64,000 nt of DNA from an uncultured virus (IMG/VR IMGVR_UViG_3300046007_013272) (taxonomy: Duplodnaviria > Heunggongvirae > Uroviricota > Caudoviricetes), in the IMG/VR virus record IMGVR_UViG_3300046007_013272, one strand, 5' to 3'. Below the pieces are notes generated by a model. That model was not told where the DNA came from, did no database searches, and was given only the letters and a program-made list of their open reading frames with translations. Positions 10,023-16,005 of this stretch are shown piece after piece. The position numbers were made by a program, and so were the translations under genes. Every line of letters starts with the position of its first letter. Position 1 is the stretch's first letter.

Positions 10023-10523
10023 ATGGCTAATTACGGAGTACAACCCGTTCGAGACCGCTTACAAAGGATAACACCTGAGCAAGCAGCCGAATATGTTCCT
10101 TTGAAGGAAGATTTTACGGGTACAACTGTTGATCAATGTCCTTTTTTTACCCTCACCTCTGGAAGTGATGGTTGGGAAAATGTGACTTATTATACTTCTA
10201 GAAAGCGAAATATTTTTGCTGATAGAGGAGATGGAAAGCATTGGGTTTATGTTTTGCAAAACGATTCAATGCCCGGTCTTTATAAGATTGGTTACACTCA
10301 TTTAATGCCTGAGGAAAGAGCACATCAAGTTTCTTCTTCAACAGGTGTTGCTACTCCATTTAAAGTTGTTTTTGCTTTTAAATGTCACGATGGAATGATG
10401 CTTGAAAAAGAAATACATCGTTATTTAGATATTTATCGCGTAAACAACAATAGAGAATTCTTCCAGGTTGAACTAGAAGAAGCTATCAACACTATTGAAT
10501 TTTTAGGAAAAACTTATAAATAA
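10023..10523 (+). CDS. T5orf172/GIY-YIG domain protein
   Basis: WVYVLQNDSMPGLYKIGYT...PEERA...TGVATPF...LEKEIH...NREFF. Confidence 0.9.
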   Translation: MANYGVQPVRDRLQRITPEQAAEYVPLKEDFTGTTVDQCPFFTLTSGSDGWENVTYYTSRKRNIFADRGDGKHWVYVLQNDSMPGLYKIGYTHLMPEERAHQVSSSTGVATPFKVVFAFKCHDGMMLEKEIHRYLDIYRVNNNREFFQVELEEAINTIEFLGKTYK

Positions 10524-10524
10524 A

Positions 10525-10600
10525 CTTGCCCTCGTAAATCTCTTTTCGTAACTTGGAGATACAGGGGTTAAGAAAAAGGAAAGGAAGGAAGGATGAAGGA
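10525..10600 (+). repeat. promoter plus purine-rich leader, copy 1
   Basis: CTTG-N20-TAACTTGG AGATACAGGGGTTAAGAAAAAGGAAAGGAAGGAAGG; similar copy at 15719-15801. Confidence 0.6.
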
Positions 10601-11099
10601 GGAAATGATGGAAACGAGGGGTAGGATATTCTGTGATATGGATGGGGTGCTAACGGATTTCGATGGGAGATTCGAGTATTTCACCGGTTTATCTCCTAAG
10701 GAATACGAGGACACTAAGGGAACAGAAGCGTTTTGGAATGCTATTACTCCCATAGGAAAAGATTTTTGGTCTAAAATGCCTTGGACCCCCGGTGGTCGTA
10801 GACTTTGGAACTTTATTAAAGACCATGAACCTAAACTTTTAACTGCTCCTTCACAAGATGTTTCTTCTAGAATAGGAAAAAATGAATGGGTTATAAACCA
10901 TTTATCTCCTATGCCTAAAGTTATTTTTAAAGGTGCTAAATACAAACATCAAGCTTTAAAATACCCCACTGATATTCTTATTGACGATAGATACGACAAT
11001 ATTACTCGTTGGAGGTCTGCTGGTGGAATTGGTTTACATCATTCTACAAATGGTGATCCTTCTGAAGTTATAGAAAAATTAAAAGAATTGGGTTATTAG
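10593..11099 (+). CDS. HAD-family 5'(3')-deoxyribonucleotidase-like protein
   Basis: IFCDMDGVLTDF, LLTAP, GKNEW, ILIDD and W..AGGIG motifs. Confidence 0.85.
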   Translation: MKEEMMETRGRIFCDMDGVLTDFDGRFEYFTGLSPKEYEDTKGTEAFWNAITPIGKDFWSKMPWTPGGRRLWNFIKDHEPKLLTAPSQDVSSRIGKNEWVINHLSPMPKVIFKGAKYKHQALKYPTDILIDDRYDNITRWRSAGGIGLHHSTNGDPSEVIEKLKELGY

Positions 11100-11100
11100 A

Positions 11101-11132
11101 TTTGGAGATATAGATATTTATTTATATCTTTA
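11101..11132 (+). promoter_or_regulatory. promoter of the tRNA array
   Basis: TTTG-N20-TATCTTTA ending 9 nt before tRNA-Leu. Confidence 0.7.
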
Positions 11133-11141
11133 CAAAAGAAT

Positions 11142-11227
11142 GCCGCCTTGGTGAAATAGGTAGACACAAGGGACTTAAAATCCCTCGGACAGCAATGTTC
11201 GTACCGGTTCGATTCCGGTAGGCGGTA
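11142..11227 (+). tRNA. tRNA-Leu(TAA)
   Basis: Cloverleaf; anticodon loop CTTAAAA; long variable arm; GTTCGA T-loop. Confidence 0.95.
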
Positions 11228-11286
11228 CAAAATATATCTAAGTGTGTAAGCTTTGAGATTTTATATTTTTGTTGTACATTTTGTAC

Positions 11287-11748
11287 ATGAATAGGATCTT
11301 TAAAAGTGGCACTACACATAAACCCATACAACTTATCCCGTATCTTTTAAATTATATAAAAGAATACCCAGAAACTAAGATTTATGTGGGTACTGATTCT
11401 CAAAATCGGGGCCCTGAAACAGTTTATGTTACTGCTATTGTTTTAAGATATAGAAGTCGAGGTTGTCATGTTCTATATCATAAAACTAAAGTCCCTATTA
11501 TCAGAGATTTTTGGGGTCGGTTGTGGAGAGAGACAGAAATGTCAATTGAAACCGCATTATTTGTTATAGAAAACAGTCCTCTAAAAGTCGAGTCAATCGA
11601 TTTAGATTTTAATGAAGACGAATATAAGTTATCTAACAAACTTGTAGCCGCATCTAAAGGTTGGGTTCACGCAGCCGGATTTAAATCTACTACAAAACCT
11701 TCACTCCAGATCGCAACAAGAGCAGCCGATCACGTTATAAGAACTTAA
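11287..11748 (+). CDS. ribonuclease H-like YkuK/DUF458 family protein
   Basis: IYVGTDSQ...YVTAIV...RLWRETEMS...IDLDFN...KP...AADH. Confidence 0.85.
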   Translation: MNRIFKSGTTHKPIQLIPYLLNYIKEYPETKIYVGTDSQNRGPETVYVTAIVLRYRSRGCHVLYHKTKVPIIRDFWGRLWRETEMSIETALFVIENSPLKVESIDLDFNEDEYKLSNKLVAASKGWVHAAGFKSTTKPSLQIATRAADHVIRT

Positions 11749-11756
11749 AGAAAAAA

Positions 11757-11788
11757 TTTGGCGAATATTTATATTATTCGTATCTTTA
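11757..11788 (+). promoter_or_regulatory. promoter upstream of the main tRNA/ncRNA block
   Basis: TTTG-N20-TATCTTTA. Confidence 0.7.
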
Positions 11789-11835
11789 CAAAAGAGTTAG
11801 AAATAACAAACGTTATTTGACATGTGGGTAAACAA

Positions 11836-11915
11836 GCCGAGATGGTGGAATGGTAGACACGCTGGTCTTAGGAACCAGTGCCTAGTGTGTGCGGGTTCGA
11901 GTCCCGCTCTCGGTA
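11836..11915 (+). tRNA. tRNA-Leu(TAG)
   Basis: Cloverleaf; anticodon loop CTTAGGA. Confidence 0.95.
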
Positions 11916-11917
11916 CA

Positions 11918-12118
11918 AATGAAAAATTCCTTACAGAAGACAGATTAGCACTGTTGAAAGGAACCTTGGCTTCAAATGGATCGCAACCATAACGAAGGTT
12001 AAATGCCCCAAGGTACTCTGTGATGGGCCCTGCTCTATGGTGCACTCATAACAGGTGAGCAGTAAACTATGCTCAGTCAAACCCACAACCACGGTGAGCG
12101 TGGAAGGAGTTTTTCATT
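11918..12118 (+). ncRNA. putative structured ncRNA (~200 nt), family unknown
   Basis: Closed by AATGAAAAATTCCTT/AAGGAGTTTTTCATT with several internal stems; fills the space between two tRNAs. Confidence 0.6.
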
Positions 12119-12125
12119 TACTATT

Positions 12126-12199
12126 GGTCCCGTAGCTCAGCTGGATAGAGCATCGCACTTCTAATGCGACGGTCATTGGTTCGAATCCAATCGGGATCA
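12126..12199 (+). tRNA. tRNA-Arg(TCT)
   Basis: Cloverleaf; loop CTTCTAA. Confidence 0.95.
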
Positions 12200-12207
12200 C
12201 ATAAAAT

Positions 12208-12281
12208 TCTCCCTTAGCTCAGTTGGTTAGAGCGAATGACTGTTAATCATTAGGTCCCTGGTTCGAGCCCAGGAGGGAGAG
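12208..12281 (+). tRNA. tRNA-Asn(GTT)
   Basis: Cloverleaf; loop CTGTTAA. Confidence 0.95.
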
Positions 12282-12283
12282 CT

Positions 12284-12578
12284 AAAGTAATGTGGCTGAA
12301 CAAAAGGGTTGAGAGCTCTTAAGGCACTGGCTGAACTGCTGAAAAGTAGGAATGTTGGGTCGAACAGACATGTGAGGTAAAACCACTCAAACTGCGGGGT
12401 AGAATGTACAACCCTTCAGCCTCTGAGGTCCCGCGAAGTTATTCAGACTGATCTCTGCAGCGGGTGCCGGTAGTCAATCCGGCTAGTTATTACAGCAGAA
12501 TTAGCTACTCTGTTGGATTATGGGTGAAAGGGGGCATGTCCAGGACGTGTGGGTAGTCAGGATTCCCACCATTACTTT
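12284..12578 (+). ncRNA. putative structured ncRNA (~295 nt), family unknown
   Basis: Ends pair (AAAGTAATG/CATTACTTT); GC-rich interior with hairpins; no + strand ORF in the track. Confidence 0.6.
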
Positions 12579-12583
12579 TTTAT

Positions 12584-12672
12584 AGTCAGGTGGCGGAATG
12601 GTAGACGCACCGTTGTACTTTATGTCTGCGGAGAAAGGAACATTCGTACAGGTTCGAATCCTGTCCTGACTA
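12584..12672 (+). tRNA. tRNA-like gene with aberrant anticodon arm (undetermined), copy 1
   Basis: AGTCAGG/CCTGACT acceptor, D arm and T arm intact; anticodon arm lacks a 5-bp stem plus 7-nt loop. Confidence 0.7.
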
Positions 12673-12673
12673 C

Positions 12674-12776
12674 AAAGGTGTTAACCACCCGGCCTACTAG
12701 AGTGAAGTATCGAGTACGATATACTTGAATAGAATAGGTAGCTACCATAAGAACGCTTTAAATTCGTTAACACTTT
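12674..12776 (+). ncRNA. hairpin RNA with CCATAAGAAC loop, copy 1
   Basis: AAAGGTGTTAAC/GTTAACACTTT outer stem; AGC-TACCATAAGAAC-GCT inner hairpin. Confidence 0.55.
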
Positions 12777-12783
12777 CCTATAT

Positions 12784-12855
12784 CGCGGGATAGAGCAGAG
12801 GTAGCTCGTTGGGCTCATAACCCAAAGGCCGAAGGTTCGATTCCTTCTCCCGCTA
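12784..12855 (+). tRNA. tRNA-fMet(CAT), initiator
   Basis: C1:T72 mismatch, GGG/CCC in the anticodon stem, loop CTCATAA. Confidence 0.92.
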
Positions 12856-12858
12856 CAA

Positions 12859-13043
12859 TGAGTAAGAGATACTCACAGTCTTTGGTCTAAGACTTAAACA
12901 ATAGACCCGCAGAATGTCTACGGCGCGAGTGGGACATCGTGGGAATAAAGGAGAACGACACAACTCCTCCCAGTAGTGTTGACTGTTTTCAAGGAGTAAG
13001 ATCCTCAGGGTTTTTGAAAGGAAAAACCGGGAATATCTACTCA
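12859..13043 (+). ncRNA. putative structured ncRNA (~185 nt), family unknown
   Basis: TGAGT..AGAT/ATCTACTCA closing stem; ACAGTC/GACTGT; TAGAC/GTCTA; GGAG/CTCC; GGTTTT/AAAACC. Confidence 0.5.
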
Positions 13044-13067
13044 CTGTAATCTCAGGTGGGGAAACAT

Positions 13068-13142
13068 AGTCAGGTGGTGTAATGGTAACTACCGCTCGCG
13101 TAAATTCGGGGGCAGATACAGGTTCAAGTCCTGTCCTGACTA
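13068..13142 (+). tRNA. tRNA-like gene with aberrant anticodon arm (undetermined), copy 2
   Basis: Same AGTCAGG/CCTGACT acceptor and ACAGG/CCTGT T stem as copy 1; irregular anticodon arm. Confidence 0.7.
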
Positions 13143-13143
13143 C

Positions 13144-13195
13144 AAAGAGTACTTATCACGCTACCCATAAGAACAGCGTCCCCGGATAAGTCTTT
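13144..13195 (+). ncRNA. hairpin RNA with CCATAAGAAC loop, copy 2
   Basis: AAAGA(GT)ACTTATC/GATAAGTCTTT outer stem; CGCT-ACCCATAAGAAC-AGCG inner hairpin. Confidence 0.55.
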
Positions 13196-13199
13196 TGTG

Positions 13200-13317
13200 A
13201 GAGAGATAGTGAAGCTGTTAGTTGGTGATGGTGCTAAAAGGATGAAAAAGGGTTTTAGAGTATTCCGAGGCCAAGCAAGTCACCAATCAGTAACCCTGAA
13301 AGACCCGAAGTCTCTCT
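13200..13317 (+). ncRNA. putative structured ncRNA (~120 nt)
   Basis: AGAGAGAT/GTCTCTCT ends; GTTAGTTGGTGAT/GTCACCAATCAGTAAC inner stem. Confidence 0.5.
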
Positions 13318-13322
13318 TTTAA

Positions 13323-13405
13323 TGGAAGGTGGGTGAGTGGTTAAAACCGGCAGACTGTAAATCTGCTCCCTTACGGGTACGGCGGTTCGAATCCGTCCCT
13401 TCCAA
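13323..13405 (+). tRNA. tRNA-Tyr(GTA)
   Basis: Cloverleaf; loop CTGTAAA; long variable arm. Confidence 0.95.
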
Positions 13406-13409
13406 CTAC

Positions 13410-13540
13410 AGAAACAGAGGAAGCGTAGAACAACTAGCCGAGAGAGCGGCGACGCAAGGGTACACACTTAGTAGCTCTCTTATTGGTGTGTTAAGCATTT
13501 GTTAGATTCCTGATAAAGTTGTTCCTGTTTCTTTTTTTTT
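13410..13540 (+). ncRNA. putative structured RNA ending in a U-tract
   Basis: AGAAACAG/CTGTTTCT and GAACAACT/AGTTGTTC stems, AGAGAGC/GCTCTCT, then a T run. Confidence 0.45.
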
Positions 13541-13551
13541 ATACTAAAATT

Positions 13552-14301
13552 ATGCTACAACTATTAAAAGCTTTTAATTTTACACTTCCTATTATTAAAG
13601 AAGGAAAATGGGGGAATGTAGAAATTGTTAAAAATAATAATACTTATATTCTTTTAGTAGATGGAGAACAATGGCTTCTCTATAAGGAAAATAATCACGA
13701 TACCGCTTATCAAGTTTTTTCACATTATGATTTAGCTTATGGACATGTAGTTTGTACTGGAATGGGGTTTGGGATTCGTGAAAATTGGTTGATTAACAAT
13801 CCTAAAGTAACTAAGATTACAGTTATTGAACGTAGCCAAGATCTTATAAATTATCATAAAGAAGTAAATTCACCATTTATTACTAGTCCTAAAGTAGAAA
13901 TATTCAATGGGAATGCTAGTGAGTACAAAGGTAAATGTGATGTTCTATTATTAGACCATTATGAACTTGAATCTTGGGAAGAAATGTTACAGGATGTTTA
14001 TAAGTGTCAACAAAATATTGATTGTGATTTGATGTGGTTTTGGCCTCTAGAAAAAATTATTACAATCTATAGAAAGTATTATACAGATAATATTGCTCCA
14101 TATAATCTTCTTACAAAACATCAAACATATCAGTTAATTAAAGAAAATTATAAGTTAGATAAATTACCTAATATAGATGAATCTACCTTAAATTTATATA
14201 TTATGATGTATTTTTCAAGTTTATTTACAAACACAGAATGGGTACTTAATACATACTTTACTGATAGAGTAGTTAATCATAACATATATTGTATGATTTA
14301 A
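13552..14301 (+). CDS. class I SAM-dependent methyltransferase / spermidine-synthase-like fold protein
   Basis: VVCTGMGFGI, ITVIE, IFNGNA and DVLLLDH motifs. Confidence 0.7.
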   Translation: MLQLLKAFNFTLPIIKEGKWGNVEIVKNNNTYILLVDGEQWLLYKENNHDTAYQVFSHYDLAYGHVVCTGMGFGIRENWLINNPKVTKITVIERSQDLINYHKEVNSPFITSPKVEIFNGNASEYKGKCDVLLLDHYELESWEEMLQDVYKCQQNIDCDLMWFWPLEKIITIYRKYYTDNIAPYNLLTKHQTYQLIKENYKLDKLPNIDESTLNLYIMMYFSSLFTNTEWVLNTYFTDRVVNHNIYCMI

Positions 14302-14308
14302 TATATTT

Positions 14309-14381
<73 letters not shown>

Positions 14382-14387
14382 CTTAAT

Positions 14388-14458
14388 TACCCTCTCGTCT
14401 AATGGCAGGACAAGTGGTTTTGGTCCACTTAATTGGGGTTCGAGTCCCTGGGGGGTAA
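14388..14458 (+). tRNA. tRNA-Gln(TTG)
   Basis: Cloverleaf; loop TTTTGGT. Confidence 0.92.
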
Positions 14459-14464
14459 CTATAT

Positions 14465-14541
14465 TGGAGAATATCCCCTCAAGCTTATACCTTGTAGAAA
14501 GGGTAAGTGGTTACATGTGGGTTCGAGTCCCATTTCTCCAA
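14465..14541 (+). tRNA. atypical D-armless tRNA-like gene (apparent anticodon TAT)
   Basis: TGGAGAA/TTCTCCA acceptor and canonical T arm; CAAG-CTTATAC-CTTG hairpin; no D arm at the normal position. Confidence 0.6.
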
Positions 14542-14545
14542 CAAT

Positions 14546-14619
14546 GCGCCTTTAGCTCAGTCGGTTAGAGCAGGAGACTCATAATTTCTTGGTCGGGGGT
14601 TCGAGCCCCTCAAGGCGCA
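14546..14619 (+). tRNA. tRNA-Met/Ile2(CAT), elongator type
   Basis: Fully paired acceptor stem; loop CTCATAA. Confidence 0.88.
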
Positions 14620-14658
14620 CTTGATTTTTATCGCAATTTCCCATATATTTATGGGAAT

Positions 14659-14745
14659 GGAGGTTTGGCAGAGCGGTCGAATGCGGCAGTCTTGAAAACT
14701 GTTTTAGGTGAGAGCCTAACCGGGGTTCGAATCCCTGAGCCTCCG
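14659..14745 (+). tRNA. tRNA-Ser(TGA)
   Basis: Cloverleaf; loop CTTGAAA; long variable arm; G discriminator. Confidence 0.95.
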
Positions 14746-14772
14746 CTAACTTAATTAATTAAATTCAAAATC

Positions 14773-14937
14773 ATGAAAAACGCAATTTTTGCATTTCTTT
14801 TCGCAGCTGTAGCTGTATCTTGTGCTCAATCTACTGAAGAAGTAGTAGTTGAAGAAGTAGTAGTAGATACTACTGCTACTGTAGACTCTACCTCACTTGA
14901 AGTAGAAGCTGAAGGCGAAGAAGCAGCAGCTGAATAA
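14773..14937 (+). CDS. small acidic lipoprotein (54 aa, MKNAIFAFLFAAVAVSCAQSTEEVVVEE...)
   Basis: Read by eye (below the ORF-track cutoff); signal peptide II with VAVS-C lipobox and E/V-rich tail. Confidence 0.75.
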   Translation: MKNAIFAFLFAAVAVSCAQSTEEVVVEEVVVDTTATVDSTSLEVEAEGEEAAAE

Positions 14938-15044
14938 TACTGAGTCTAGCCTCTAAATCCTCTTCCCAGAGAGGTTGACTTCGGAGAAAAGATTCAAAAG
15001 GGGAGTACGTGAACCGATAGCGTCTTAGAAAAAACCTCCCATAC

Positions 15045-15117
15045 GCTTCCTTAGCTCAGCTGGTAGAGCCACTGATTTGTAATCAGTAGGTCGTTGGTTC
15101 GAATCCGACAGGAAGCT
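15045..15117 (+). tRNA. tRNA-Thr(TGT)
   Basis: Cloverleaf; loop TTTGTAA. Confidence 0.95.
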
Positions 15118-15191
15118 CATCTCGCCTTCCATCTGAAAGGAGTAAGTGGAGAAGGAGTAAAGAAGCCGTTACTTTGTAGCGGTTTCGGTAT

Positions 15192-15264
15192 GCGAAAGTA
15201 GCTCAGTTGGTAGAGCATAACCTTGCCAAGGTTAGGGTCGCCGGTTCGAATCCGGTTTTTCGCT
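15192..15264 (+). tRNA. tRNA-Gly(GCC)
   Basis: Cloverleaf; loop TTGCCAA. Confidence 0.95.
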
Positions 15265-15311
15265 CAAAATTATCCACATTCCCTTTTTTAAAAAGCTATA
15301 TATTTATATCC

Positions 15312-15713
15312 ATGGATATGGATAAGATATTTAGTCTCTTTGACTCTGAATCGGGGCAAGAGTTACTAACTCAAAGTTCCCCCAAGAGATTGGAGGACAC
15401 CGCCTTATTCCATGTTGGGATGTTCCGCAAATTAATTCTTAGTGAAAATACTTATCATAAAGAATTACACAAGGAATTCCCTTTTATGAAAGGCATTGAT
15501 ATTCTTAGTGAAGCTGTTGTCTTTCATAGAGCATATTTTTATATAGACAAAGTTAAATTTGAAGAAGAATTAGGTAAAGAAGCCTTAAAATTTTTCAATG
15601 GAATAGAACTAAAAACTTGTTTTAAATTATCAATACACTTTTTTGAAGAAAAAGAAGCATATGAAAAATGTGCTCATCTAAAAAAACTCCTAGATTTCTG
15701 TGAAGAATCATAA
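15312..15713 (+). CDS. hypothetical protein (C-terminal E.YEKCA.L, UVR-like motif)
   Basis: Start trimmed to lie past tRNA-Gly; preceded by ATATTTAT. Confidence 0.7.
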   Translation: MDMDKIFSLFDSESGQELLTQSSPKRLEDTALFHVGMFRKLILSENTYHKELHKEFPFMKGIDILSEAVVFHRAYFYIDKVKFEEELGKEALKFFNGIELKTCFKLSIHFFEEKEAYEKCAHLKKLLDFCEES

Positions 15714-15718
15714 TTAAA

Positions 15719-15801
15719 CTTGCTACCATGAACCTTTTTTTGTAACTTCGAGATACGGGGTTAGAAAGAAAGGGAAGGAAAGGTAGGAGAGATAAGGGGG
15801 G
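15719..15801 (+). repeat. promoter plus purine-rich leader, copy 2
   Basis: CTTG-N20-TAACTTCG AGATACGGGGTTAGAAAGAAAGGGAAGGAAAGG. Confidence 0.6.
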
Positions 15802-15831
15802 TTATGTACATTCAACCTAAAATATATTATT

Positions 15832-16005
15832 ATGAGAACTCCTGAAGTAGCAATTTCAAAAATTGAAAAAATCGAAGGTAAATTAAAAACTATGAGCGTT
15901 TTACTTACCCGTCAATCAACTGCTCAACAATTTCAAGAACAAATTACATCTGCTGAAGATTTACTTCAAGATATAAAAGATATGATCCAAAGAGATATTC
16001 AATAA
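15832..16005 (+). CDS. small coiled-coil protein (57 aa, MRTPEVAISKIEKIEGKL...)
   Basis: Read by eye; ends 6 nt before the HD gene. Confidence 0.65.
   Translation: MRTPEVAISKIEKIEGKLKTMSVLLTRQSTAQQFQEQITSAEDLLQDIKDMIQRDIQ

What the first reader, a model, noticed from the sequence alone, without database searches (positions are those of the whole stretch)
12584..13195. Duplicated cassette: non-decoding tRNA-like gene followed by a hairpin with a conserved CCAUAAGAAC loop
Seen: two tRNA-like genes (12584-12672 and 13068-13142) share the acceptor AGTCAGG/CCTGACT, the T stem ACAGG/CCTGT and the 3' flank ACAAAG. Their anticodon arms are different from each other and both non-canonical. Each is followed immediately by a stem-loop whose outer stems are unrelated in sequence but whose 12-nt inner loop is nearly identical (TACCATAAGAAC at 12743-12754; ACCCATAAGAAC at 13163-13174). 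Inference: a conserved loop on variable stems suggests a protein-binding RNA motif. The tRNA-like half may act as an RNase P/Z processing handle, a decoy for host anticodon nucleases, or a synthetase sponge rather than a decoder. I recognise no named family for this unit.
Basis: partly seen in the sequence, partly recalled or inferred. Interest (0 to 1): 0.85.

Follow-up and report, generated by a model that had tools for sequence, protein, structure and literature searches.

The report
Anticodon-less phage tRNA look-alikes plus hairpin
A lake phage carries two tRNA-shaped RNAs that cannot read codons, each followed by a hairpin with a fixed 12-letter loop; both belong to widespread phage RNA families that no catalogue lists and whose job is unknown.

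Summary
12584-12672 and 13068-13142 are tRNA-shaped genes that share one acceptor stem, D arm and T arm but lack a usable anticodon arm. Each is followed by a structure that shows the loop (U/A)(A/C)CCAUAAGAAC.

They are not a private duplicated cassette. They are members of two separate families of uncultured phages.
- Family 1 keeps a nearly invariant leucine-tRNA-like upper half (AGUCAGG acceptor). A hypervariable insert replaces the anticodon and variable arms. I found 160 distinct elements of 65-191 nt; only 2 have a canonical anticodon arm. This scan has met the family before on other DNA.
- Family 2 is a hairpin with a 12-nt loop, not noted before in this scan and matching no Rfam family. 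It lies between phage genes, directly behind tRNA 3' ends, or inside family-1 scaffolds.

Most likely reading (inferred): the tRNA/RNA array is one transcript. Host RNase P and RNase Z cut at the tRNA shapes. This releases the hairpin RNAs and leaves the tRNA-shaped RNAs as stable carriers of their inserts. The loop is probably a binding site for an unknown factor.

Closest known are the unexplained stable RNAs of the T4 and T5 tRNA clusters. Expression evidence is weak. Function is untested.

The parts
12584..12672 (+). tRNA-like RNA 1 (89 nt). It has the AGUCAGG acceptor, a Leu-type D arm (GGCGGAAUGGUAGACGC), the T arm ACAGG-UUCGAAU-CCUGU and discriminator A. A 39-nt insert stands in place of the anticodon and variable arms.
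   Evidence: Model R1 scores it 72.6 bits, but its own copy was in the seed alignment.
12673..12783 (+). Spacer RNA 1. The outer stem pairs 12675-12685 with 12766-12776. It encloses a long hairpin and the small hairpin AGC[UACCAUAAGAAC]GCU (stem 12740-12742 with 12755-12757, loop 12743-12754). It ends 7 nt before tRNA-Met (12784).
   Evidence: Folds. Contigs from RNA libraries lie on 12681-12776 (X19) and 12673-12776 (X20).
13068..13142 (+). tRNA-like RNA 2 (75 nt). It has the same acceptor and T arm as RNA 1. The D arm is GGUGUAAUGGUAACUACC. A 4-bp stem with an 8-nt loop lacking U33 stands where the anticodon arm should be.
   Evidence: Model R1 scores it 66.2 bits, but its own copy was in the seed alignment.
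13143..13200 (+). Hairpin RNA 2. The helix spans 13145-13196. The inner stem pairs 13158-13162 with 13175-13179. The loop ACCCAUAAGAAC is 13163-13174. The 3' bulge CCCCG is 13180-13184. The flanks are AGUAC and GUCUUUUGU.
   Evidence: Fold (z -2.7). It matches the family consensus.
11142..15265 (+). Co-oriented array of 12 canonical tRNAs, the two tRNA-like RNAs, a weak third tRNA-like stretch (14465-14541), structured G+C-rich spacers and two ORFs. This is the presumed common precursor.
   Evidence: G+C is 0.45-0.49 in 11850-13499 against 0.24-0.42 in the flanking coding DNA.

Best explanation
Shown:
- The two genes belong to a large, phage-restricted family of tRNA-Leu-shaped RNAs. Acceptor stem, D arm, T arm and discriminator are almost invariant.
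- A hypervariable insert replaces the anticodon and variable arms, so they cannot decode.
- The two hairpins are copies of a second, independent phage RNA motif. A 3-5-bp stem closes a 12-nt loop, (U/A)(C/A)CC(A/G)(U/C)(A/U)AGA(A/U)C. It usually sits in an outer helix with a 3' bulge and is followed by a U-rich run.

Inferred:
- The whole array is transcribed as one precursor.
- Host RNase P cuts at the 5' end of every tRNA shape. RNase Z or 3' trimming cuts behind the discriminator.
- The tRNA-like RNAs therefore act as punctuation that frees the neighbouring spacer and hairpin RNAs with defined ends.
- They also act as stable, tRNA-shaped carriers of their own inserts.
- The hairpin is one such cargo. 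It can be delivered beside a scaffold (as here) or inside one (loci L089 and L113).
- Its exposed loop is a recognition site for a factor acting in trans, most probably a protein. That factor is unknown.
For: Family of tRNA-like RNAs:
- 160 distinct elements are 65-191 nt long.
- Only 2 of 160 have a 5-bp stem with a Y32-U33-R37 loop (0.2 expected on shuffled middles). ARAGORN of 160.
- Core tRNA positions are kept in 150 elements: U8 in 145, A14 in 131, A15 in 133, U before the T stem in 122, and T loop UUCGAAU in 99.
- Inserts fall into recurring classes with compensating stem changes.
- Members not selected by my pattern keep the same arms.
- The 170-kb phage genome has just these two.

Hairpin:
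- 39 of 120 exact loop matches have 3 or more pairs closing the loop. I estimate about 7 by chance.
- The 4th pair, which I did not select for, is paired in 24 of 33 sequences with 5 pair types.
- In loci chosen only for the tRNA-like RNA there are 9 hairpins on its strand and 0 on the other.
- In L089 and L113 the hairpin is the insert of a scaffold.
- In 5 cases the loop starts 18-20 nt behind a tRNA or tRNA-like 3' end.

Processing:
- 49 of 191 tRNA-like RNAs have an ORF start within 40 nt downstream, with a mode of 15 nt. The random control gave 136 of 1909.
- Contigs from RNA libraries of two studies lie on 12681-12776 and 12673-12776. Other family members with other inserts also appear in these runs.

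Precedent:
- T5 annotates stable RNAs that abut tRNAs, including 'tRNA-like stable RNA' RNA1.
- T4 rnaC ends in a T arm and an acceptor-like stem.
Against: - No cleavage, no RNA ends and no single transcript are shown. The RNA evidence is assembled contigs from RNA libraries, which can hold DNA and cannot show ends.
- Ordinary tRNAs could punctuate just as well. Punctuation alone therefore explains neither the near-invariant sequence of the scaffold nor the variable inserts.
- Insert folding energy is only modestly better than shuffled (mean z -0.71).
- Most hairpins lie away from tRNAs, so excision by tRNA enzymes cannot be their general route.
- 31 of 47 hairpins have a T-run within 30 nt downstream of the inner stem. 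This fits a terminator as well.
- The outer helix exceeds the controls only slightly (6.3 against 5.67).
- No partner for the loop was found.
Confidence: 0.5

Rival explanations
1. The tRNA-like RNAs are substrates or sponges of leucyl-tRNA synthetase. Once CCA is added they are charged with leucine whatever their insert. They then either titrate the enzyme or donate leucine to a reaction outside the ribosome. This does not exclude the main reading.
For: - The D arm is GGCGGAAU(U)GGUAGACGC.
- Of 150 elements, 131 have A14, 133 have A15 and 122 have a U before the T stem (an A15:U48-type pair).
- The discriminator is A in both window copies.
- From established knowledge (recalled, not from a call): E. 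coli LeuRS reads A73 and the D/T-loop tertiary core, not the anticodon.
Against: - The discriminator A was fixed by my search patterns.
- Among the AGUCAGG-acceptor members not caught by the pattern it is A, G or U.
- The same scaffold also carries a canonical Lys (UUU) anticodon arm (L064:2992-3062), so the scaffold is not tied to leucine.
- CCA is not encoded.
- No charging data exist.
Confidence: 0.2
2. The constant ends matter at the DNA level. The two invariant halves are landing sites for homologous or site-specific exchange, so inserts and neighbouring spacers or genes are shuffled between phages as cassettes.
For: - The acceptor and T stems are conserved as sequence, not through compensating changes, even in members that my pattern did not select.
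- There are many copies per contig.
- ORF starts sit at a fixed distance of about 15 nt.
Against: - The conserved positions are exactly those a folded tRNA needs: U8, A14, G18/G19 and the T loop.
- D stems do vary with compensation (GGCGG/CGC, GGUGU/ACAC, GGCUAC/GUAG).
- I did not test exchange at the ends here.
Confidence: 0.2
3. The hairpin is chiefly an intrinsic transcription terminator or attenuator, or a 3'-end stabiliser, with an unusual loop. The loop has no partner of its own.
For: - 31 of 47 hairpins have a T-run within 30 nt downstream of the inner stem.
- Five copies are perfect 8-11-bp hairpins followed by a T-run just before an ORF.
- L308 and L311, in Bacteroidota genomes, end in long T-runs.
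Against: - A terminator does not need an almost invariant 12-nt loop.
- The copies inside scaffolds (L089, L113) have no outer helix and no T-run.
- The copies between tRNAs (L207, L261, window 13143-13200) would cut off the downstream tRNAs.
- The consensus terminator scan did not call them, but it allows only loops of 3-8 nt.
Confidence: 0.2
4. The loop is an antisense ('kissing') site for an RNA target. Its complement, GUUCUUAUGGGA, contains AUG.
For: The loop is exposed and 12 nt long. It varies at adjacent positions (AU, GU, GC), as a pairing site might.
Against: - No complementary site of 8 nt or more was found in the 9 loci searched. The few 7-nt matches in 4 of the 9 loci lie in no common context.
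- Complementary sites in the window are scattered inside ORFs and are not at starts.
- Only one exact reverse match exists in the 170-kb genome.
- The host genome is unknown.
Confidence: 0.08
5. These are decaying tRNA pseudogenes next to chance hairpins.
For: They have the lowest Rfam tRNA scores in the array. The insert folds are not strongly stable.
Against: - More than 160 distinct members keep a near-perfect upper half, and only the middle varies.
- Insert classes recur with compensating changes.
- The hairpin statistics speak against chance.
Confidence: 0.02

Closest known systems
Phage T4 species 1 RNA (rnaC, NC_000866 70908-71046, 139 nt) and species 2 RNA (rnaD)
   Same: - They are small stable RNAs inside a T4-type phage's tRNA cluster.
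- rnaC ends in CCGGG-UUCGAAU-CCCGG plus an acceptor-like stem, with about 100 nt in between.
- Their biological role is unknown (passage read in PMC3014915).
   Different: - There is no sequence relationship. Model R1 gives only 16.1 bits on the 3' part of rnaC.
- T4 has one copy of each, not a multi-copy family with one constant scaffold and interchangeable inserts.
Phage T5 RNA1 ('tRNA-like stable RNA with unknown functions', NC_005859 30501-30644) with RNAI, RNAIII and RNA2H
   Same: The record annotates stable RNAs lying end to end with each other and with tRNA-His. This is a tRNA-like RNA plus spacer RNAs in one tRNA region.
   Different: I took this from the annotation only and did not compare T5 RNA1 with model R1. 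The loop-motif regex found no match in the T5 or T4 stretch.
Plant mitochondrial t-elements (PMC1920247; search listing and abstract start only), mascRNA-type tRNA-like 3'-end signals, and the tRNA-miRNA units (TMERs) of murine gammaherpesvirus 68 (the last two recalled)
   Same: In these systems tRNA-shaped, non-decoding structures serve as RNase P/RNase Z cutting marks. The cuts define the ends of neighbouring RNAs. TMERs are a tRNA-like element followed by hairpins.
   Different: They are eukaryotic or organellar systems, unrelated in sequence and without hypervariable inserts. Processing is not shown for the phage RNAs.
Engineered 'tRNA scaffold' for recombinant RNA (PMC3401473 and PMC3753655; search listing and abstract starts only)
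   Same: The design is the same: a cargo RNA replaces the anticodon region of a tRNA, so that the cell processes and stabilises it.
   Different: That scaffold is man-made. The phage family would be a natural counterpart, which is untested.
tmRNA
   Same: The topology is the same: a tRNA-like acceptor and T-arm domain with a foreign insert where the anticodon arm would be.
   Different: - The phage RNAs have a full D arm and U3:A70 in place of the G3:U70 alanine mark.
- Their inserts are 15-140 nt.
- ARAGORN finds no tmRNA in the window.

Membership tests
Decoding tRNA (Rfam RF00005) | Cloverleaf with a 7-bp acceptor stem, a D arm with GG, and a T arm with a UUCRANU loop; score above the gathering cut-off | tested here: met
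   Scores are 43.0 and 37.3 bits against a cut-off of 29. The arms can be read directly.
Decoding tRNA (Rfam RF00005) | 5-bp anticodon stem with a 7-nt loop carrying U33 and a purine at 37 | tested here: not met
   - Copy 1 has an extended imperfect stem with a 5-nt apical loop.
- Copy 2 has a 4-bp stem with the 8-nt loop CGUAAAUU.
- ARAGORN gives an anticodon at position 38 and a 4-base 'aaat'.
- In the family, 2 of 160 pass this test.
AGUCAGG-type tRNA-Leu-like scaffold RNAs of phages (uncatalogued; defined here) | 5' half AGUCAGG-UG-GYGK-AAU(U)GGUA..., 3' half U-ACAGG-UUCRANU-CCUGU-CCUGACU-A, with a non-canonical insert between them | tested here: met
   - Both window copies carry both halves.
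- Model R1 scores them 72.6 and 66.2 bits, against 38.5 or less for the 7 other R1 matches in the window, all at canonical tRNA genes.
- Caveat: the seed alignment A1 contained the window's own copies (L093), so these two scores are inflated by construction.
CCAUAAGAAC-loop hairpin of phages (uncatalogued; defined here) | 12-nt loop within 2 mismatches of UCCCAUAAGAAC, closed directly by 3 or more pairs | tested here: met
   Window copy 2 has 1 mismatch and 5 pairs. Window copy 1 has 1 mismatch and 3 pairs.
CCAUAAGAAC-loop hairpin of phages (uncatalogued; defined here) | Outer helix with flanks (A/U)GUAC ... GUCUU and a 3' bulge | tested here: inconclusive
   Copy 2 has all of these. Copy 1 has a different outer architecture. 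The flank motifs occur in only 15 and 17 of 47 instances.
Any Rfam 15 family, for the hairpin | A cmscan match on the hairpin | tested here: not met
   There is no match on 12673-12783 or 13143-13200 at E up to 5. There is none at the hairpin position in 20 other loci at E up to 1.
T4 rnaC / T5 RNA1 stable RNAs | Sequence or profile similarity | tested here: not met
   Model R1 gives 16.1 bits on the 3' part of rnaC. BLAST of the cassette against 50,697 phage records finds only tRNA-Met and short T-arm matches. T5 RNA1 was not scored.
Intrinsic terminator (hairpin 2) | G+C-rich stem followed by a U-tract | tested here: inconclusive
   UCUUUUGU follows the helix. The scan tool did not report it, but it allows only loops of 3-8 nt.
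tmRNA / YrlA | ARAGORN tmRNA call; Rfam RF00023 or RF02553 match | tested here: not met
   No tmRNA was called. The YrlA matches of 26 and 19 bits (cut-off 69) lie on canonical tRNAs only.
RNase P / RNase Z substrate | Cleavage at the 5' end and behind the discriminator | not testable with these tools
   Only the structural prerequisites are seen: a 7-bp acceptor stem plus a 5-bp T stem, the elbow nucleotides, and no encoded CCA.

The most novel reading that the evidence does not exclude
The AGUCAGG scaffold is a natural plug-in 'tRNA scaffold'. Phages of Bacteroidota would use one constant, host-processed tRNA-Leu-shaped frame to express, stabilise and exchange a library of small RNA effectors. 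The CCAUAAGAAC loop would be one such effector: an RNA decoy or aptamer for a conserved host protein, for example an RNA-processing or defence factor. It would be delivered either on the scaffold or cut out beside it.
Probability: 0.2. Interest if true: 0.85.

Novelty: new variant of a known kind. Interest (0 to 1): 0.66.

Why it matters
Stable tRNA-like RNAs in phage tRNA clusters have been known in T4 and T5 for a long time, and they remain unexplained. This family offers hundreds of natural variants built on one constant frame. That makes the question open to comparative and biochemical tests, such as which parts are read by RNase P, RNase Z, the CCA-adding enzyme or LeuRS, and what the inserts bind.

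The finding also matters for annotation. Standard tools label these genes as tRNA-Ile (UAU) or 'undetermined' tRNAs. This inflates the apparent decoding repertoire of phages.

The hairpin is a compact motif found in many phages, with a nearly fixed 12-nt loop. It is a ready bait for finding an RNA-binding factor of Bacteroidota or of their phages.

Tried and rejected
- Cultured relatives. BLAST of the cassette against GenBank phages gave only tRNA-Met and short T-arm matches. The nearest cultured relative by portal protein is Flavobacterium phage immuto (59.2% identity). Its best R1 match is only 29.3 bits.
- Diverged orthologous arrays. A search through the ORF 13519-14301 found one near-identical strain (L294, same 14 ARAGORN calls) and one relative that is not in a tRNA array. 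No covariation test on the window's own inserts was therefore possible.
- A complement of the loop encoded nearby. Nothing convincing was found.
- A loop-to-bulge pseudoknot (UAAG with CUUA). It fits the CGCUUA bulges but not the CGCUCA or CCCAG bulges, nor the window's copies. I dropped it.
- BoxA-like reading of the CGCUYA bulges. This rests on a recalled resemblance only, the bulge is seen in a minority of instances, and the window's copies lack it.
- Association of the hairpin with one downstream gene. The downstream ORFs differ: small proteins of about 65 aa, a protein whose start looks lysozyme-like by eye (no domain search was run), and others.
- Enrichment in Bacteroidota genomes. 5 of 401 genomes match the pattern, and the reversed control also gives 5 matches. 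Four of the five matches do carry 4-bp closing stems.
- Fremin et al. 2023 (PMC10690425). The two zip archives of supplementary files could not be unpacked and searched, and one spreadsheet was not reached. I cannot say whether either family is among their 10,006 candidates.
- Parts of the stretch without RNA-contig cover (11974-12089 in all four runs; 13250-13307 in three of the four runs). No conclusion drawn.
- Odd 'goes back' joints at 12776 in run X19. I take them for assembly fold-backs at the near-palindromic outer stem and did not pursue them.
- The promoter and terminator scan of 10500-16000 found no more sites than in shuffles.

Full report
**Setting**

The window comes from a 170,105-bp uncultured virus record (G001).
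- It encodes a T4-type portal, major capsid protein and terminase.
- Lake-water metagenomes hold it.
- Its portal is 59.2% identical to that of Flavobacterium phage immuto.
- Contigs with the same tRNA-like RNA are often binned with Bacteroidota genomes. A Bacteroidota host is therefore likely, but this is inferred.
- On the + strand, 11142-15265 holds 14 ARAGORN/Rfam tRNA calls, two ORFs and long G+C-rich spacers.

**Observation**

- The two odd genes score lowest of the 14 on the Rfam tRNA model, at 43.0 and 37.3 bits.
- ARAGORN reads them as 'Ile tat', with the anticodon at position 38, and as '??? aaat'.
- Neither has a 5-bp stem with a 7-nt U33/R37 loop.
- The shared 18-mer at their 3' ends occurs exactly twice; 0 of 100 shuffles reach two.
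- The second hairpin (13145-13196) folds as described, with z -2.7.
- The first loop hairpin has only a 3-bp stem. It lies inside a branched 104-nt structure whose outer stem starts 3 nt after the tRNA-like gene.

**The tRNA-like genes belong to a large family**

- Extending each hit to the nearest upstream AGUCAGG gave 165 distinct elements. Of these, 160 are 65-191 nt long, and the lengths form a continuous range.
- The first 26 nt and the last 25 nt are nearly constant. The middle differs in sequence and length.
- Only 2 of 160 middles have a canonical anticodon arm, against 0.2 expected on shuffled middles. One of the two is a true Lys (UUU) arm on the same frame. ARAGORN calls only 41 of 160.
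- Positions needed for the tRNA L-shape are kept in 150 elements: U8 in 145, A14 in 131, A15 in 133, U before the T stem in 122, and T loop UUCGAAU in 99.
- D stems vary with compensation.
- Acceptor and T stems are conserved as sequence, even in members that my pattern did not select.
- Inserts form recurring classes with compensating stem changes. An example is L017 and L066 against L071.
- I built model R1 from 41 members. In the window it separates the two genes (72.6 and 66.2 bits) from real tRNAs (38.5 bits or less). The same model finds only these two in the phage genome. The window's own copies were in the seed alignment, so those two scores are inflated.
- The family is rare in 185,579 prokaryote species genomes. 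There were 31 loci, nearly all short contigs of metagenome-assembled genomes.
- It was not found in GenBank phages by BLAST, and phage immuto has no R1 match above 29.3 bits.
- Earlier notes of this scan describe the same family on other DNA.

**The hairpin is a second, independent motif**

- Of these, 39 have 3 or more pairs closing the 12-nt loop and 27 have 4 or more. I estimate about 7 and 2.5 by chance. The remaining matches look like coding or chance hits.
- In an alignment of 33 instances, three closing pairs were fixed by my selection. The fourth pair was not, and it is paired in 24 of 33 sequences with five pair types. The fifth pair is at chance level (13 of 33). Slid controls pair in 21-51% of cells.
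- Many instances share an outer helix, a 3' bulge (CGCUYA or CCCAG types), the flanks (A/U)GUAC and GUCUU, and a T-run. The excess of the outer helix over controls is small (6.3 against 5.67).
- In 290,555 nt of loci chosen only for the tRNA-like RNA, 9 hairpins lie on its strand and 0 on the other. Their loops vary only at a few positions.
- No Rfam family matches the hairpin.

**How the two relate**

- Of 43 distinct hairpins, 5 begin directly behind a tRNA or tRNA-like 3' end, with the loop 18-20 nt after it. The window's second copy is one of these.
- Two more (L089, L113) are themselves the insert of an AGUCAGG scaffold.
- Most have no tRNA T arm within the roughly 400 nt held upstream.
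- The 'cassette' is therefore a recurrent juxtaposition of two modules and not an obligatory unit.
- The scaffold-embedded copies lack the outer helix and the T-run. This places the function in the loop and its closing stem.

**Mechanism (inferred)**

The array looks like one precursor.
- The tRNA shapes carry what RNase P, RNase Z and the CCA-adding enzyme read: an acceptor plus T-arm helix, the elbow, and no encoded CCA. C follows the discriminator in 30 of 32 family members from prokaryote genome contigs, a set not selected for that base.
- Cutting there would free spacer RNA 1 (12673 to about 12776) and hairpin 2. It would leave the tRNA-like RNAs as stable carriers.

Evidence that fits, all of it weak:
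- A quarter of family members (49 of 191) sit a fixed distance of about 15 nt before an ORF start. The random control gave 7% (136 of 1909).
- RNA-library contigs of two studies lie on 12681-12776 and 12673-12776. Contigs that match the two constant halves with other middles are also present. Such contigs prove neither transcription nor ends.

What the loop binds is unknown. No complementary site encoded nearby was found.

**Comparison with what is known**

- T4 rnaC ends in a T arm and an acceptor-like stem around about 100 nt of other sequence. Its role is unknown (PMC3014915, passage read).
- The T5 record annotates RNA1 as a 'tRNA-like stable RNA with unknown functions', next to RNAI, RNAIII and tRNA-His.
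- These work alike but are not relatives.
- Plant mitochondrial t-elements (PMC1920247, listing only) and engineered tRNA scaffolds (PMC3401473, listing only) are mechanistic parallels.
- Four full-text searches returned no paper describing either family.
- The alignments of Fremin et al. 2023 could not be searched.

**Verdict**

The feature is real. Within the long-known but unexplained class of phage tRNA-like stable RNAs it is a new variant, and it comes with a hairpin motif that has not been catalogued.

Noticed in passing
window 12019-12081 (+): This is a near-threshold match to Rfam freshwater-1 RNA (RF02979): 68.3 bits against a cut-off of 72, E 8e-15. It lies in the 209-nt gap between tRNA-Leu (tag) and tRNA-Arg.
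   Followed up: no
window 12263-12579 (+): This is a weak full-length match to the manA RNA motif (RF01745): 27.8 bits against a cut-off of 55.2, E 2.4e-4. It almost exactly fills the 301-nt gap between tRNA-Asn and the first tRNA-like gene.
   Followed up: no
window 12857-13067 (+): This 211-nt G+C-rich spacer is exactly bracketed by tRNA-Met and the second tRNA-like gene. RNA-library contigs cover it (for example 12856-13087 in X20). Its fold z-score is only -1.25. Earlier scan notes describe conserved knotted RNAs of about 210 nt in such gaps in other phages.
   Followed up: partly
window 14465-14541 (+): A third weak tRNA-like stretch scores 28.9 bits on the Rfam tRNA model, just under the cut-off. 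Its acceptor is UGGAGAA/UUCUCCA. ARAGORN does not call it, and its middle is non-canonical.
   Followed up: partly
window 10023-10523, 11269-11748, 13519-14301 (+): ORFs are interleaved with the array: a T5orf172 domain protein, an RNaseH_like (PF04308) protein between the two tRNA-Leu genes, and a 260-aa ORF with no Pfam match inside the array. The layout resembles segB in the T4 tRNA region.
   Followed up: no
L064:2992-3062 (-): This is a canonical tRNA-Lys (UUU) built on the same AGUCAGG acceptor and ACAGG T arm. It shows that the constant frame can also carry a working anticodon arm.
   Followed up: partly
L025, L037, L092, L123, L131; L001, L031, L101; L014, L015, L032, L106, L132: Further conserved spacer sequences recur just downstream of tRNA-like genes in unrelated contigs. 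They start ACAUUCCAGCACGGGGGACAUUUACCC..., run UGACACGCACGGCA...GCAAUGCGAACGA, or contain CUCGGAAAGACGAG.
   Followed up: no
L276 (Hymenobacter montanus contig, 142461-143281): A tRNA-Arg (CCU)-like gene has a 3' end that reads like the scaffold's CCUGUCCUGACUA but does not pair with its own 5' end. It may be a hybrid left by integration at a tRNA gene.
   Followed up: no
L201:1-174 (+): A partial match to tmRNA (RF00023, model positions 186-374, 23.6 bits, E 3e-6) lies next to a tRNA and a CCAUAAGAAC hairpin in a viral contig.
   Followed up: no
L308, L311 (Bacteroidota genome contigs): Two clear copies of the hairpin, each with a CGCUCA bulge and a long T-run, lie in prokaryote genome assemblies. 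I did not check whether they sit in prophages.
   Followed up: no
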